13,521 bases of DNA, taken from the IMG/VR virus record IMGVR_UViG_2703718869_000015; one strand, written 5' to 3'. Position 1 is the stretch's first letter; each line of letters opens with the position of its first letter. Source of the DNA: a virus (lineage: Duplodnaviria; Heunggongvirae; Uroviricota; Caudoviricetes). Made by a program: the position numbers. Positions 6,001 to 12,000 of the stretch are shown in pieces.

Positions 6001-9000
6001 AACTCAGTAATGGACGGGTGGTGGCCTTTGATAAAAATAATCTGATGCAGGCGGTAGCTGTGGCATCCGGGCGGGTTCAGGTGAAAGTCGGGCGGGTAAG
6101 CCGTATTCGTGAAGCCTGGTTTGTCGGGCCGCACTTTATTGTGGATCGCCCCTGTAGTGCTCCGCAGGGGATGTTTCCGCTGGTTCCTTTCTGGGGATAC
6201 CGAAAGGATAAAACCGGGGAGCCATACGGGCTAATTTCCCGCGCCATTCCGGCACAGGATGAGGTGAATTTTCGTCGTATCAAGCTGACCTGGTTGCTTC
6301 AGGCCAAACGTGTGATTATGGACGAGGATGCCACCCAGTTGTCAGACAACGACCTGATGGAGCAGCTCGAACGTCCGGATGGCATTATTAAACTGAATCC
6401 GGTCCGAAAAAATCAGAAAAGTGTCGCAGATGTTTTTCGGGTTGAGCAGGATTTTCAGGTTGCCAGCCAGCAGTTTCAGGTCATGCAGGAATCGGAAAAA
6501 CTTATCCAGGATACCATGGGAGTGTATTCCGCATTTCTCGGGCAGGATTCAGGTGCGACGTCAGGCGTGGCTATCAGTAACCTGGTGGAGCAGGGGGCCA
6601 CAACCCTTGCGGAAATCAACGATAACTACCAGTTTGCCTGCCAGCAGGTGGGAAGACTGTTGCTGGCTTATCTTCTCGATGACCTGAAAAAACGCCGTAA
6701 TCATGCAGTGGTGATTAATCGCGATGATCGCCAGCGTCGCCAGACCATTGTCCTCAATGCTGAAGGTGATAATGGTGAACTGACCAATGATATTTCAAGG
6801 TTAAATACACATATTGCGCTGGCTCCTGTTCAGCAGACACCGGCGTTTAAGGCACAGCTTGCACAGAGAATGTCAGAGGTTATTCAGGGGCTGCCGCCTC
6901 AGGTGCAGGCTGTTGTGCTCGACCTGTGGGTTAATCTTCTGGATGTGCCGCAGAAACAGGAGTTTGTTGAGCGTATTCGTGCTGCGCTGGGGACGCCAAA
7001 ATCACCGGATGAAATGACGCCGGAAGAACAGGAAGTAGCGGCACAACAACAGGCACTTCAGCAACAACAGGCAGAACTCCAGATGCGCGAGATGGCTGGC
7101 AGAGTGGCAAAACTGGAAGCTGACGCCGCCAGGGCACATGCAGCTGCACAACGGGATAATGCCAGTGCACAGCGGGAAGTCGCCCTGACACAGGGGCAGC
7201 GTTATGTGGATGCGCTTAACCAGGCACATACGGCAGAAATCATTACCGGCGTACAGAATATGGAACAGGAGCAGGACGTTCTTCAGCAACAGATGCTGTA
7301 TACGTTACAACAGCGGATGAATGAAATGTCGCTCTGAAAACTCTGGCTTCAACTGAACCCCGTCATCGTACGGGGTTTTTTGTTTCCGGAGGTAAGCGTT
7401 CCGGGAGCGGTGCGCTTATTCGCGGGGGCAGCGATAAGCCTTATTTACTCAACCATTCGGATCTGTCCGATAAACAGACCATGCGGAGTTATTTATGGAT
7501 TTTGAATTTACGGGTGAAGAAACCCCGGAACAACTGGAAAAAATGCTGGAAGGACTTGGGGATGTGGATATTGACAGTCACGCACAGGACGTCGTGACGG
7601 AAGATACCACGGAAAAACATGCGGATGAGGAAGCACAGACTCAGACGGGCGATAACAATGTGGCACCGACGCCGGATGCCAGTGTGGAGCAGACGCAGGA
7701 CGTGAAGGAGCCGGAAGCGAAGGGGGTGCTCACCCGCGACGGTAAACACGTCATTCCCTATGAAGTCCTTGAGGCTGAACGTTCCGGTAAGCAACGGGCC
7801 GAACAGGAAGCCGCACTTCTTCGTGGGCAGATAGCTGAAGAAAAACGCAGGGTGGAACTGCTGACGTCTCAGATCCACCAGGCCGGTATGAAGCCCACAC
7901 CGTTACCGGAAAACGAAAAAATTTCTGATGAGCAGATTGCCCGTATCAGGGAGATGTATCCGGAAATTGGTGACGCGGTGGCTTCGCTCATCCGTAAAAA
8001 TAACTATCTCCAGTCCCGTGTTCAGCAATCAGCACAGCAGGCAGAAGGTAATGGTGGTGAGGATTTATCACCGGTTCTTGATGCGATGAATGCCGTGCCG
8101 GTGCTGAAAACGTGGCAGGAGTCCGATCCAGATCGCTTCTCGGTTGCTGTATCCATCGACGGGAAGCTCCAGAATGACCCCGCATGGAAAGACAAAACGC
8201 TCACTGAACGTTTCGCTGAAGTGGCCCGTCGTACGCAGGTTGCTTTCGGTGAAGTCAGTGAGTCGTCTGCTGACAACAAGGCAGACAAAACGGATATCCG
8301 GAAAACGGCGGAAGAGAAAGTGAAGACCGCTGAACAGGAGCAGGCAGTACCTGCTTCCCCGTCAGATTTAGGCACCACGGCTTCCGTCGGAACCGGTGAT
8401 AATTTTGAACGGTTACTTGGCGCTTCTCATTCAGAGGCAGAGGCGATTATGCGCGGTATGACGAATGCTGAAATAGACGCGCTTCTGGAGAAGCTCGGGT
8501 AACTTACTGAAGGAGAACTGAAGTAATGACGACTGTAACATCAGCCCAGGCGAATAAGCTGTATCAGGTGGCGCTTTTTACCGCTGCCAACCGCAACCGC
8601 TCGATGGTCAATATCCTCACTGAACAGCAGGAAGCGCCAAAAGCGGTTTCGCCGGACAAGAAAAGCACGAAGCAGACCAGCGCGGGTGCGCCGGTTGTCC
8701 GTATCACAGACCTTAACAAACAGGCCGGTGATGAAGTGACCTTCAGCATCATGCACAAACTCTCAAAACGTCCGACGATGGGAGATGAGCGTGTTGAAGG
8801 TCGTGGTGAGGATCTCAGCCATGCTGACTTCTCCCTGAAAATCAATCAGGGACGTCACCTGGTGGATGCAGGCGGACGTATGAGTCAGCAGCGCACGAAG
8901 TTTAACTTGGCATCCTCAGCCAGAACGCTTCTGGGGACGTACTTTAATGACCTGCAGGACCAGTGTGCGATAGTGCATCTTGCTGGAGCTCGTGGTGATT

Positions 9001-12000
9001 TTGTTGCTGACGACACTATTCTGCCGACAGCGGAGCACCCTGAATTCAAAAAAATCATGATCAACGATGTACTGCCTCCGACACATGACCGTCACTTTTT
9101 TGGCGGTGATGCGACAAGCTTTGAGCAGATTGAAGCGGCAGATATTTTTTCTATTGGCCTGGTGGACAATCTCTCCCTGTTCATTGACGAAATGGCGCAT
9201 CCGTTACAGCCGGTTCGTCTGTCCGGTGATGAACTTCACGGAGAAGATCCATATTACGTCCTGTACGTCACGCCGCGTCAGTGGAATGACTGGTACACCT
9301 CGACGTCCGGTAAGGACTGGAACCAGATGATGGTTCGTGCCGTGAACCGTGCAAAAGGTTTTAATCATCCGCTGTTCAAAGGTGAATGTGCGATGTGGCG
9401 CAATATCCTGGTTCGTAAGTATGCGGGTATGCCGATCCGTTTCTATCAGGGGTCAAAGGTTCTGGTATCAGAGAATAACCTGACGGCAACCACGAAAGAG
9501 GTCGCTGCTGCAACCAATATTGACCGCGCCATGTTACTGGGGGCTCAGGCGCTGGCAAATGCTTACGGTCAGAAGGCGGGCGGTCACTTCAACATGGTTG
9601 AGAAGAAAACGGATATGGATAACCGTACTGAGATAGCAATCAGCTGGATCAACGGTCTGAAAAAAATCCGTTTCCCCGAGAAGAGCGGCAAGATGCAGGA
9701 TCACGGCGTGATTGCCGTTGATACAGCAGTGAAGCTCTGATTTTTTCCTTTCCCTATGCCGGGTTTTCGCCCGGCTTTTTCAGGAGTCATTAATTATGGC
9801 AAAGACTATCCTTGCCCCGTCACTGAGTGAACGGGTCTATACGGGTACGCACGGTAATGAGTCGGTGGCAGAAGGCGTATTTACGGTGAATGCTGCGGAA
9901 GCGGACAGTGTTATTCATCTTCTCTCACTGCCAGTGGGCATCCGTATCAACTCACTCCAACTGGTTTCAACGGGTGGTCTGGGTACTGCAACCGTCAGCA
10001 TTAAGTCCGGTGAGCATGCTCTCATCGATAACAGCGAAGCTGTTTCTGCAAAATTTGCCAGATATGTGCCAGTGGAGCCGTACACCACACAGCGTGACGG
10101 GGAGCTGGTTACTGTCACCATTAAGACTGCCGCTGCAACCGGCACCCTGAATGTTCTGCTGCGTTATACCGTGGTGGGATACTGATTAAAACCTTCCTGC
10201 CCGCGTCATGCGGGCTTTTTATCCGGGGAATTATATGAGTGAGAAAATTGCCGTTGTCTATATCGGCCCAAAACCCGTGAAAAAGGACACCATTACCGGA
10301 AGTCGCACGCTGTTCCCACGTCTTGAGCCGGTGCATGTTGACAGCGCGATGGCCTGGCAACTGCTGGGGTTTCCGGATGTCTGGGTTCGTCATGAAGAGC
10401 TTGATGATGTTCTGAAAAAGCAACAACAGAATGAGCAGTTGCGGCAGGCACAGCAGGCGCAGGAAAGAGTGCTTGCTGCGCTGGCAGAAGCGGAGAACAG
10501 TTTTGTTGTTTCTGTTAACGGGCAGGAGGTGGATTTAAGTAAGCTCACCTCAGCACGGCTGGCGACGCTGTGTGAGGCAGAAGAGCTGGATATTCACAAA
10601 GACCCGAAAGAAACGGCTGAGGCATTCCGTATCCGGGTGCGTGAGGCATTTCGCCGTCGTGTTGCGGAGACTGAACAGTATGGCGGAACTGAGTGATTTT
10701 TTACCGTATGTCCGTCGTCATATCAGCGGTCCACTGAACATTATGATGACGGATGCTCTGTCAATGGCTGCCGTGGCATTCAGCCGCCAGTCGTTGGTGT
10801 GCCGTCGGGAGGTTACTGTTGTACCAGTAGCAGGAAAAGAAATCGTGCTTCCGTATGACAAAGATGATGAGGAGTGCGTTCATATCATCCGTATCTCTGA
10901 CGATAATCATGAGCTTTTTGTCGGTCGGGATGTGGATATCAGCTCCGGACGCTCCCTGCGATTTGCCTGTTCTCCCGGTGAGGTGAGCGTGCTTTATGCC
11001 GTCGCTCCGAAAGCCGGACGCAGCCAGATACCGGATGAACTCCTCACATGGCCTGAAGAAGTGGCTGCGGGGGCACTTGAGCGGTTGTTCATGCAGACTG
11101 GTGTTTCATGGTCAGATCCGTTACGCGCACAGTATTTTTCTGTGCAGTTTTCTGAGGGGATCCGTCGGGCATATCGTCATACACTGGCGACAAGCCCGTA
11201 CTCTTCATACCGCAACCCTGTACGCAGGCAGAGGTTTTTCTGATGACGACGATTACAGAAATCATCGGACGTGTGAATACACAACTGGTTGACCCGATGA
11301 TGGTTCGCTGGCCCCTGCAGGAATTGTGCGATTATTACAATGATGCTGTGAGGGCAGTGATTCTGGCGAGACCGGATGCTGGCGCAAGCCTGGAAACAAT
11401 AAGTTGTGTTCCTGGCGCCCGTCAGGTTTTGCCCGATGGTGTAATACAACTTCTTGACGTGATATGCCTCAGTGACGGTAGTGCAGTCAGACCATTATCC
11501 CGGGAGGTGCTGGATGCGCAGTATCCTGAGTGGCCCACAATGAAGGGTATTCCTGAATGTTTTATCAGCAACGACCTGTCCCCGCGCGTATTCTGGCTGT
11601 TTCCTGCTCCTGACAAAGAGATAAGTATTGATGCAGTGGTAAGCCGGATACCGGAGGCAGTGTATGTTCTGACGCAGGACGATGATACGCCAGTTCCACT
11701 GGAAGAGGCTTATGTTAACCCACTGGTGGAGTGGATGTTGTTTCGCGCTTTCAGTAAGGATGCTGCCGGTGGCGCAGAATCGGGGCTGGCTGCGCAGCAT
11801 TATCAGAGTTTTGTTGAGCAACTTGGGATCAAACAGGGGGCAGACAGTGCATTGTCTGCCCGTAAAAAAGTGTTTAACGGAGGTGGAGTGTGAGTGTTGT
11901 TGTTTCGGGGACGCTGAAATCTCCTGATGGTGAGGCGATATCAGGAGCAAATATTACCCTGACGGCGCTGACAGTTTCACCGGATGCGCTCAGCGGCACC

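What the first reader, a model, noticed from the sequence alone, without database searches (positions are those of the whole stretch)
7338..10222. Three strong intrinsic terminators inside the head-gene block
Canonical stem plus U-tract terminators follow the portal gene (7356-7385), the capsid gene (9758-9781) and the 129-aa gene (10199-10222), yet downstream genes continue on the same strand with tight spacing. This implies the operon is read by a termination-resistant polymerase (Q-type late antitermination in lambdoid phages) and/or that the terminators set stoichiometry, for example high capsid versus lower downstream products. The terminator after the portal gene is followed by a 110-bp gap that could hold an internal promoter.
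Basis: partly seen in the sequence, partly recalled or inferred. Interest (0 to 1): 0.4.

Follow-up and report, generated by a model that had tools for sequence, protein, structure and literature searches.

The report
Terminator hairpins bracketing Stx-phage head genes
Three textbook terminator hairpins really do sit between the head genes of this Shiga-toxin phage, which is an ordinary, known arrangement for a late operon read by an antiterminated polymerase, but the gap after the first one holds no promoter and instead a widely conserved, undescribed RNA hairpin just ahead of the putative scaffold gene.

Summary
The window is the late region of a 933W/Sp5-type Stx2a phage (100% to LC645442, 99.9% to 933W). 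All three hairpin-plus-U-tract sites are present at the stated coordinates, each in an intergenic gap on the coding strand. They are as strong as the phage's own tR' (-11.6 to -13.0 vs -12.0 kcal/mol). Their stems are invariant in 54-55 Stx-phage loci. Hairpins occupy the same three positions, with unrelated sequences, in about 88 distant relatives: 60-84% of loci against 16.6% of coding windows.

The reading [quoted passage not shown] fits the annotated Q/pR'/qut/tR' of 933W, but was not tested here. A stem-loop after the coat gene is already annotated in P22 ("as in HK97 and lambda"), so this is a known kind.

The proposed internal promoter is not supported. The 109-nt gap has no sigma-70 match and is filled by a conserved structured leader. 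Its core is a hairpin with loop NGCGAUAN next to the scaffold ribosome-binding site. The stems covary across Enterobacterales, Vibrionaceae, Acinetobacter, Pseudomonas and Betaproteobacteria. A covariance model finds it only there (56 hits in 770 kb), and Rfam has no match. It is probably a translational operator.

The parts
5193..7337 (+). Portal gene (714 aa); its stop precedes T1.
   Evidence: Pfam P22_portal, E 8e-127. Annotated as portal in 933W and phi345.
7355..7385 (+). T1, an intrinsic terminator. Stem 7355-7363/7370-7378, loop CAUCGU, U-tract UUUUUUGUUU.
   Evidence: -13.0 kcal/mol. The stem is invariant in 55 Stx-phage loci while the flanks and loop vary. A terminator or hairpin lies upstream of the scaffold gene in 67 of 80 relatives.
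7381..7430 (+). Leader helix P1. The outer stem is 7381-7388/7423-7430 and the inner stem 7391-7399/7412-7420, with a variable apical hairpin. The 5' arm of P1 overlaps the T1 U-tract.
   Evidence: Single-sequence fold. RNAalifold on 16 enterobacterial leaders shows compensatory changes in both stems.
7425..7442 (+). Hairpin A: GGGGC[AGCGAUAA]GCCUU. This is the conserved NGCGAUAN-loop hairpin. Its 5' arm overlaps the 3' arm of P1-outer, so the two structures are mutually exclusive.
   Evidence: Covariation: the 4 inner pairs are 100% paired in 28 distinct sequences with up to 5 pair types, score 0.756 against at most 0.243 when slid. The covariance-model hit is at 7419-7448. No Rfam family matches.
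7462..7478 (+). Hairpin B: UCUGU[CCGAUAA]ACAGA, 6 nt upstream of the GGAG Shine-Dalgarno sequence (7485-7488) of the scaffold gene.
   Evidence: There is a compensatory G-C to A-U change in relatives (UCUAU...AUAGA).
7495..8502 (+). L0115, a 335-aa acidic protein between the portal and capsid genes. It is a putative scaffolding protein, inferred from position and composition.
   Evidence: PHROG 479, function unknown. No PDB relative. The synteny scaffold-capsid-small protein holds in about 85 loci. A conserved peptide DGKHVIPY is present.
8526..9740 (+). Major capsid protein gene (404 aa).
   Evidence: Pfam Phage_capsid_3, E 1.5e-88. Matches PDB 8h89 major capsid protein, E 1e-38.
9758..9780 (+). 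T2, an intrinsic terminator: GCCGGGU[UUUC]GCCCGGC plus UUUUU. The Shine-Dalgarno sequence AGGAG follows at 9782-9786.
   Evidence: -12.7 kcal/mol. The stem is invariant and the loop variable in 54 loci. A post-capsid hairpin is present in 60 of 88 relatives against a 16.6% background. It has the same architecture as the annotated P22 stem-loop after gene 5.
9796..10185 (+). L0117, a 129-aa virion structural protein (probably head decoration or cement).
   Evidence: PHROG 486, virion structural protein. The homologue in phage D14S is annotated as a putative cement protein.
10199..10220 (+). T3, an intrinsic terminator: GCCCGC[GUCAU]GCGGGC plus UUUUU. The Shine-Dalgarno sequence GGGGA follows at 10225-10229 and the start codon at 10235.
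   Evidence: -11.6 kcal/mol. Variation in 54 loci lies in the loop, U-tract length and flanks, with a base change at the stem base. A hairpin sits at this position in 65 of 83 relatives, 40 of them canonical, against 0.2% of coding windows.

Best explanation
T1, T2 and T3 are genuine Rho-independent terminator hairpins inside the Q-dependent late operon of a 933W-type Stx2a phage.

During lytic growth, RNA polymerase that Q modified at pR'/qut reads through them, as it does through tR' and the terminators around stx. Downstream genes are therefore expressed from one long transcript (inferred).

Unmodified polymerase should stop at these sites. They would then also keep the head genes silent in the lysogen (inferred).

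Their positions are under selection. They bracket the high-copy genes for the putative scaffold, the capsid protein and the small virion protein. Once transcribed, the hairpins probably also act as 3' barriers or segment boundaries that raise the relative yield of those messages (inferred).

The 109-nt gap after T1 is not a promoter region. It is a structured 5' leader of the scaffold gene, transcribed by read-through. Its conserved core is a hairpin with loop NGCGAUAN, present as two copies in this phage. It lies within the ribosome-binding region and most likely serves as an operator for a protein that controls scaffold translation. The scaffold protein itself is the first candidate, by analogy with P22 (inferred).
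For: **Identity and operon context**
- Searches give the phage identity and show Q, pR', qut and tR' annotated upstream on the same strand.
- PMC7547250 states that Stx late transcription is governed by antitermination at tR' and maps the tR' 3' end by Term-seq.
- PMC2629481 gives the general rule for lambdoid late operons.

**Terminator anatomy and strength**
- Searches show strength equal to tR'.
- A series of similar + strand terminators runs through the whole 933W late operon: after stxB, lom, L0129 and L0133.
- No promoter-like site lies in or near the gaps.

**Selection on the terminators**
- Stems are invariant (T3: apart from a base change at its base) while loops and flanks vary in 54-55 loci.
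- Positions are conserved with unrelated sequences in about 88 loci whose capsid proteins are 25-75% identical. Counts are 67/80 pre-scaffold, 60/88 post-capsid and 65/83 post-small-protein.
- The background in coding windows is 16.6% for hairpins and 0.2% for canonical terminators.

**Leader**
- Leader sequence is clearly conserved where the scaffold protein is only 41-52% identical.
- Hairpin covariation is shown and helix P1 covariation.
- The covariance model gives 56 hits with E<0.07, all on the coding strand at the 5' end of the scaffold gene. The first hit elsewhere has E 0.079, in 770 kb searched on both strands.
- In most non-enteric clades the hairpin ends 9-22 nt before the called start codon. 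Enteric phages keep a second copy at -17.
- The 41-aa ORF annotated there is not conserved.
- P22 scaffold autoregulation is an established precedent (Wyckoff & Casjens 1985; Casjens & Adams 1985, cited from the reference list seen).
Against: - No transcript data were available, so neither termination nor read-through at T1-T3 is shown for this phage.
- Q-modified polymerase would make the terminators nearly invisible in lytic growth. A stoichiometric role through termination is therefore doubtful.
- T1 lies upstream of the genes needed in the highest amounts.
- Many relatives are not known to be lambdoid or to encode Q, yet keep the same hairpin positions. Q is therefore not the reason for the conservation.
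- The scaffold identity of L0115 is positional only.
- No binding protein for the leader hairpin is identified.
- The match between scaffold peptide type and loop type is a single clade split. The Nitrosospira clade also keeps a short CGAUA hairpin further upstream.
- The seed set for the hairpin was chosen by requiring pairing. This inflates the percentage paired, though not the diversity of pair types or the specificity of the model.
Confidence: 0.6

Rival explanations
1. The conserved feature is the RNA hairpin, not termination. [quoted passage not shown] The U-tracts in the E. coli phage would be secondary.
For: In relatives only 18 of 60 post-capsid hairpins, 35 of 67 pre-scaffold hairpins and 40 of 65 post-small-protein hairpins have at least 5 U in 8. 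High-GC hosts keep GC-rich hairpins without U-tracts. Q-modified polymerase would ignore the terminators anyway. The P22 curators annotate the equivalent element only as a stem-loop.
Against: In the Stx phages all three have canonical, conserved U-tracts of 5-7 U and match the strength of tR'. No decay or processing data were available. The two roles are not mutually exclusive.
Confidence: 0.3
2. The gap 7386-7494 contains an internal promoter that re-initiates transcription of the scaffold and capsid genes after T1.
For: The layout (terminator, long gap, highly expressed genes) would suit it. In Pseudomonas, Acinetobacter and Betaproteobacteria relatives a conserved box CCCCCTGTAGGGTT follows the terminator and could be a promoter of unknown type. 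Some Vibrio phage leaders contain 9-10 of 12 sigma-70-like matches.
Against: The window, 933W and L100, L101 and L104 have no sigma-70-like match in the gap, and L068 has only a weak 8-of-12 match 223 nt into its gap. The conserved leader helix starts inside the T1 U-tract, so no spacer is left for -35/-10 elements. Conservation in the gap takes the form of compensatory base-pair changes. The CCCCCTGTAGGGTT box is absent from the window.
Confidence: 0.07
3. The structured leader (P1 plus hairpin A) is a cis-acting processive antitermination RNA, of the put type or the boxA/boxB nut type. It would make polymerase resistant to T2, T3 and later terminators independently of Q.
For: Two adjacent stem-loops of about 65 nt lie just upstream of two terminators. 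The segment GCGCUUAUUCGC followed a few nt later by a hairpin loosely recalls a boxA-boxB layout. Relatives not known to have Q keep both the leader and the downstream terminators.
Against: No Rfam antitermination family matches, even at E 10. The boxA-like string is confined to the enteric clade. What is conserved across clades is a hairpin placed 9-22 nt from the start codon, which is the geometry expected of a translational operator. T1 lies upstream of the element and would not be covered by it.
Confidence: 0.1
4. The hairpins are chance palindromes or remnants of gene-cassette junctions with no function.
For: Terminators often mark moron and module boundaries. In Vibrio phage 1F273_PE002 extra genes are inserted at the portal-scaffold junction.
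Against: The window holds about twice as many terminator-like sites as shuffled sequence (27 against 12.3, sd 2.9). All three top sites fall in 3% of the sequence. Stems are preserved among varying flanks. Hairpins recur at the same positions in about 88 loci.
Confidence: 0.03

Closest known systems
Lambdoid late operon under Q antitermination (lambda, P22 gene 23, 933W/H-19B Q; pR'-qut-tR')
   Same: The window is from a 933W-type phage. Q, pR', qut and tR' are annotated upstream on the same strand. The late genes are one co-oriented block interrupted by intrinsic terminators as strong as tR'.
   Different: Q itself is outside the window, and read-through at T1-T3 has not been measured. Terminators inside the head-gene block are not annotated in the 933W record; only those around stx are.
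Stem-loop after the major capsid gene of lambdoid phages (annotated in P22 after gene 5, 'similar in location to stem-loops in HK97 and lambda'). From my own knowledge, the T-phi terminator after T7 gene 10 is comparable.
   Same: T2 has the same place and build as the P22 element: a GC hairpin, a U-rich run, then the ribosome-binding site of the next gene. The position is conserved across a large capsid family.
   Different: Here the capsid belongs to a different family (Phage_capsid_3, N4-like). There are three such sites, bracketing scaffold-capsid and the small virion protein rather than a single site.
Post-transcriptional autoregulation of the P22 scaffolding protein gene (Wyckoff & Casjens 1985; Casjens & Adams 1985)
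   Same: A scaffold-type gene sits between portal and coat. The conserved RNA hairpin in its ribosome-binding region is the kind of target such feedback needs.
   Different: P22 has only a 13-nt portal-scaffold gap and no such leader. L0115 is not a recognisable homologue of P22 gp8. No binding has been shown. This is an analogy of mechanism, not membership.
Translational operator hairpins of phages (MS2/PP7 coat-replicase operator, T4 RegA and gp32 sites); from my own knowledge
   Same: A short hairpin with a conserved loop and freely covarying stem lies within the 30S binding region of the regulated gene.
   Different: The loop sequence (NGCGAUAN, 8 nt) matches none of these operators. The binding protein is unknown. 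In enteric phages there are two copies plus a competing helix.

Membership tests
Rho-independent (intrinsic) terminator | GC-rich stem of about 5-14 bp with a 3-8 nt loop on the transcribed strand. | tested here: met
   T1 has 9 bp with loop 6, T2 has 7 bp with loop 4, and T3 has 6-7 bp with loop 3-5. Energies are -13.0, -12.7 and -11.6 kcal/mol.
Rho-independent (intrinsic) terminator | U-tract directly 3' of the stem. | tested here: met
   There are 5-6 U in the first 8 nt after each stem. U-tract length is 5-7 across Stx phages.
Rho-independent (intrinsic) terminator | RNA 3' ends accumulate at the U-tract in vivo or in vitro. | not testable with these tools
   Term-seq exists for strain Sakai (PMC7547250), but no supplementary tables are held.
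Q-antiterminated lambdoid late operon | Q gene, pR', qut and tR' lie upstream on the same strand, with no other promoter before the genes in question. | tested here: met
   This holds for the 99.9%-identical 933W record. No promoter-like site appears in the head block. The window itself does not reach Q.
Q-antiterminated lambdoid late operon | Read-through of the internal terminators depends on Q. | not testable with these tools
   Needs reporter or transcript assays with and without Q.
Post-capsid-gene stem-loop of tailed phages (P22/HK97/lambda type) | A stable hairpin lies within a few tens of nt after the major capsid gene stop, before the next head gene. | tested here: met
   T2 starts 18 nt after the stop. 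P22 stem_loop 6102-6119 has the same layout. Sixty of 88 relatives have one.
Any described RNA family (Rfam 15), for the leader 7381-7494 | Match to a curated covariance model. | tested here: not met
   No hit reached any gathering score. The best E-values were 0.3-0.5, on terminator-like parts only.
nut (boxA/boxB) or put antitermination RNA | boxA consensus plus a boxB hairpin with a GNRA-like pentaloop, or the two put stem-loops. The element sits just downstream of the promoter it serves. | tested here: not met
   There is no family match. The conserved loop is 8 nt (AGCGAUAA). The boxA-like string occurs only in the enteric clade. The element is about 13 kb from pR'.
Sigma-70 promoter in 7386-7494 | -35 and -10 hexamers with 16-18 nt spacing, conserved in relatives. 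| tested here: not met
   No site with at least 9 of 12 matches was found, nor at least 8 of 12 in my own scan. Conservation follows helices, not hexamers.
Protein-coding small ORF (41 aa, 7380-7505, annotated in phage phi345) | Reading frame preserved in relatives. | tested here: not met
   The frame is broken by 1-nt indels in L049 and L064 and is absent in L065, L068, L090 and L091.

The most novel reading that the evidence does not exclude
The NGCGAUAN-loop hairpin in the scaffold-gene leader would be the RNA operator of an assembly-coupled feedback loop. Free scaffolding protein, or another unassembled head protein, would bind it and block translation of the scaffold gene. The competing helix P1 would act as a switch. 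This phage has two copies of the hairpin, and the element is conserved from E. coli to Acinetobacter, Pseudomonas and Betaproteobacteria phages. If true, it would be a new, widespread class of phage cis-regulatory RNA. It would also supply a concrete RNA target for scaffold autoregulation, a phenomenon known from P22 since 1985 whose target site, as far as I know, has not been defined.
Probability: 0.3. Interest if true: 0.7.

Novelty: new member of a known kind. Interest (0 to 1): 0.4.

Why it matters
The terminators themselves confirm textbook logic. A lambdoid late operon is studded with strong terminators that only Q-modified polymerase passes. This matters for Stx phages because the same switch governs toxin release. 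The result also documents that head-gene terminators, unannotated in 933W, are conserved across a very large capsid family.

The more useful outcome is the leader hairpin. It is a compact, strongly covarying, position-specific RNA motif that is absent from Rfam and easily testable with reporter fusions. It may explain how phages of this family match scaffold synthesis to capsid assembly.

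Tried and rejected
- **Published transcript ends.** The Sakai Term-seq/dRNA-seq paper has no supplementary tables held. The EDL933 Cappable-seq TSS table is truncated well before the prophage, by my estimate, and covers uninduced cells only. This route was abandoned.
- **Literature searches.** Searches for described head-block terminators in Stx phages, or for a scaffold-leader RNA motif, found nothing relevant. The two P22 autoregulation papers are not held.
- **Rfam.** Searches of the whole window and of the gap alone at E up to 10 gave only noise.
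- **HnrS.** This multicopy prophage sRNA was checked as a possible identity for elements here. It is in other prophages (Sp9, Sp10, Sp12) and is unrelated.
- **Attenuator reading of the leader.** Segment 2 (GCUUAUUCGC) could pair with GCGAUAAGC and be followed by a U-rich run. I dropped this because the pairing is weakened in the L068-type leaders (my reading of the sequences).
- **CsrA binding.** The conserved loop has no GGA, and GGA in the apical loop of P1 is not conserved. Rejected.
- **P22 leader.** P22 has only a 13-nt gap between portal and scaffold genes, so it has no homologous leader.
- **PDB sequence search.** L0115 and L0117 gave no informative relatives.

Full report
**What the window is.** The stretch 7000-10400 is 100% identical to Stx2a-converting phage Stx2_112991 and 99.9% identical to 933W and VT2-Sakai (Sp5). 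In all, 193 phage records match, nearly all Stx phages of the Sepvirinae.

In 933W coordinates (window + 26075) the finding covers five genes:
- L0114, the portal;
- L0115;
- L0116, the capsid protein;
- L0117;
- the start of L0118.

Pfam confirms the portal (P22_portal, 8e-127) and the capsid protein (Phage_capsid_3, 1.5e-88). The capsid protein also matches solved capsid proteins. L0117 is a "virion structural protein" (PHROG 486). L0115 belongs to a family of unknown function. I call L0115 a scaffold only from its position, size and acidic coiled-coil-like composition.

- The consensus scan lists 27 terminator-like sites in the window against 12.3 ± 2.9 in shuffles.
- Each begins 14-18 nt after a stop codon and is followed by 5-6 U. 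The Shine-Dalgarno sequence of the next gene comes directly after T2 and T3, and after the leader in the case of T1.
- The four gaps of the head block make up 3.1% of it, so three of three landing there has a chance of about 3e-5 (my arithmetic).
- The hairpins alone fold at -13.0, -12.7 and -11.6 kcal/mol. The annotated tR' of 933W folds at -12.0.
- The 3' end at tR' has been mapped by Term-seq in strain Sakai (PMC7547250).

**Conservation among close relatives.**
- In 54-55 Stx-phage loci the stems of T1 and T2 never change, and T3 varies only at its base.
- Differences lie in the loops (T1 C>U; T2 UUUUCG > UUAUCG or UUAUUG; T3 G>A at the edge of the loop), in U-tract length (5-7) and in the flanks.

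**Conservation among distant relatives.**
- I collected phages and prophages whose capsid proteins are 25-75% identical to the query. Hosts include Serratia, Pectobacterium, Yersinia, Vibrio, Photobacterium, Pseudoalteromonas, Acinetobacter, Pseudomonas, Delftia, Rhodoferax, Nitrosospira and Burkholderia.
- The gene order scaffold-capsid-small protein is kept.
- A hairpin of at least 6 bp with at least 4 GC pairs occurs as follows:

| Position | Loci with hairpin | With at least 5 U of 8 |
|---|---|---|
| Upstream of the scaffold gene | 67 of 80 | 35 |
| After the capsid gene | 60 of 88 | 18 |
| After the small gene | 65 of 83 | 40 |
| Coding 67-nt windows of the same loci (background) | 16.6% | 0.2% |

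- The sequences are unrelated between clades, so the positions themselves are selected.

**Interpretation: antitermination.**
- 933W carries Q, pR', qut and tR' upstream on the same strand.
- Its late operon contains a string of comparable + strand terminators: tR', before stx, after stxB, T1-T3, and after lom, L0129 and L0133.
- No promoter-like site is found in or near the head-block gaps.
- It is also not new. The curated P22 record annotates a stem-loop after coat gene 5, [quoted passage not shown]. That element has the same build as T2.

**Interpretation: stoichiometry.** The three sites bracket the genes needed in the largest amounts, which fits a dosage role. Three points argue against a simple termination gradient.
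- T1 precedes the high-copy genes.
- Q-modified polymerase should largely ignore the sites.
- Most post-capsid hairpins in relatives lack a good U-tract.

I therefore think the transcribed hairpins also work as RNA 3' barriers or segment boundaries. I also think they stop unmodified polymerase in the lysogen. Both roles are inferred.

**The gap is a leader, not a promoter.**
- No sigma-70-like site lies in 7338-7494.
- The region folds into a long helix P1 (outer stem 7381-7388/7423-7430, inner stem 7391-7399/7412-7420) whose 5' arm overlaps the T1 U-tract.
- The leader is clearly conserved in loci whose scaffold protein is only 41-52% identical.
- RNAalifold on 16 enterobacterial leaders shows compensatory changes in both P1 stems.

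**The conserved hairpin.**
- The core element is a hairpin with an 8-nt loop NGCGAUAN.
- The window has hairpin A, GGGGC[AGCGAUAA]GCCUU (7425-7442). It also has a second copy with a 7-nt loop, UCUGU[CCGAUAA]ACAGA (7462-7478), 6 nt before the GGAG of the scaffold gene.
- A hairpin of this type is found upstream of the scaffold start in 49 of 80 loci. In most non-enteric clades it ends 9-22 nt before the called start codon.
- About 0.007 such hairpins per leader are expected by chance (my estimate).
- At least twelve different stems occur, for example GGGC/GCCU, AGAC/GUCU, GUGC/GCAC, GCUAC/GUGGC, GCCAC/GUGGC, GUCAU/AUGAC and UCCAU/AUGGA.
- On 28 distinct sequences the four inner pairs are always paired, with up to five pair types. 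The covariation score is 0.756 against at most 0.243 for slid partners, and 0 of 500 shuffles reach it.
- One caveat applies: the seeds were picked by requiring at least 3 pairs.

**Specificity of the hairpin.**
- A covariance model built from these sequences was searched over 770 kb on both strands.
- It gave 56 hits with E<0.07. All are on the coding strand, about 760-1300 nt upstream of the capsid start by my subtraction from the locus coordinates, which puts them at the 5' end of the scaffold gene. The hits include loci not in the seed.
- The first hit elsewhere has E 0.079.
- Rfam has no matching family.
- The 41-aa ORF annotated here in phage phi345 is not conserved.

**Likely mechanism of the leader.** A hairpin with a fixed loop and free stem, placed inside the 30S binding region, is the anatomy of a translational operator.

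By analogy with P22, the scaffold protein itself is the first candidate binder. P22 scaffold synthesis is autoregulated post-transcriptionally (Wyckoff & Casjens 1985; Casjens & Adams 1985; titles seen).

One hint supports this.
- All 42 loci with both a model hit and a recognisable peptide have a scaffold with DGxHxIP[YF].
- The 21 Nitrosospira-clade scaffolds with SGKGxIPY have a different hairpin next to the Shine-Dalgarno sequence, with loop GCUCACU.
- This is one clade split, and that clade also keeps a short CGAUA hairpin further upstream, so the evidence is weak.

In enteric and Vibrionaceae leaders, P1-outer and hairpin A compete for the same bases, and both show covariation. This suggests a switch.

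Two rivals remain, both scored low.
- A put- or nut-like antitermination RNA. This is less likely because of the geometry relative to the Shine-Dalgarno sequence and the lack of any family match.
- A promoter of unknown type. A CCCCCTGTAGGGTT box occurs in other clades but not here.

**Verdict.**
- The antitermination reading is supported by context and is already known biology.
- The stoichiometry idea is plausible but incomplete.
- The promoter idea is not supported.
- The terminators are an ordinary new instance of a known arrangement.
It deserves a direct test.

Noticed in passing
window 136-213 (-): Weak match to the EHEC sRNA family Esr41 (RF02676; 28 bits against a gathering score of 102; E 0.069). 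It ends in a GC hairpin plus U7 and may be a diverged prophage sRNA gene.
   Followed up: no
window 1683-1715 (+): The strongest terminator-like hairpin of the window (15 bp, -20 kcal/mol) lies after the endolysin-like ORF 1060-1593. The lysis region here differs from that of 933W.
   Followed up: no
window 10208 vs 10235: The 933W annotation starts L0118 at an ATG inside the T3 stem (window 10208). ATG 10235, preceded by GGGGA, is the likely start and is the one used in POCJ13 and PhiR12_3.
   Followed up: partly
window 7380-7505 (+): A 41-aa 'hypothetical protein' is annotated in phage vB_EcoP_phi345 over the leader. Its frame is broken or absent in relatives, so it is probably not a gene.
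   Followed up: yes
L006 1297-3067 (Vibrio phage 1F273_PE002): Five extra genes, including two annotated as Thoeris anti-defence and one as an endolysin, are inserted between the portal and scaffold genes. This junction is therefore an insertion hot spot.
   Followed up: no
L010, L011, L129, L138, L152, L159-L161 (pre-scaffold gaps): A conserved box CCCCCTGTAGGGTT lies directly after the pre-scaffold terminator in Pseudomonas, Acinetobacter, Delftia and Aquabacterium loci. It may be a promoter or regulator site. It is absent from the window.
   Followed up: no
L010 7924-8130; L011 8180-8392; L012 4006-4200; L013 4070-4279: CsrA-like regulator genes are embedded in the head modules of related phages (D14S, 8P, DC1, LASTA). 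This hints that post-transcriptional control of head genes is common in this lineage.
   Followed up: no
L127-L158 (Nitrosospira-clade loci), about 20-35 nt before the scaffold start: A different hairpin sits next to the Shine-Dalgarno sequence: CCC[GCUCACU]GGG, with covarying stems CGC/GCG and CGU/ACG. It goes with a different scaffold peptide (SGKGxIPY instead of DGxHxIPY).
   Followed up: partly
window 11838-11861: A 9-bp GC-rich palindrome (GGGCAGACA...TGTCTGCCC) lies at the 3' end of the adaptor-like gene L0120, just before the tail-fibre gene. The scan lists it on the - strand with a poor U-tract.
   Followed up: no
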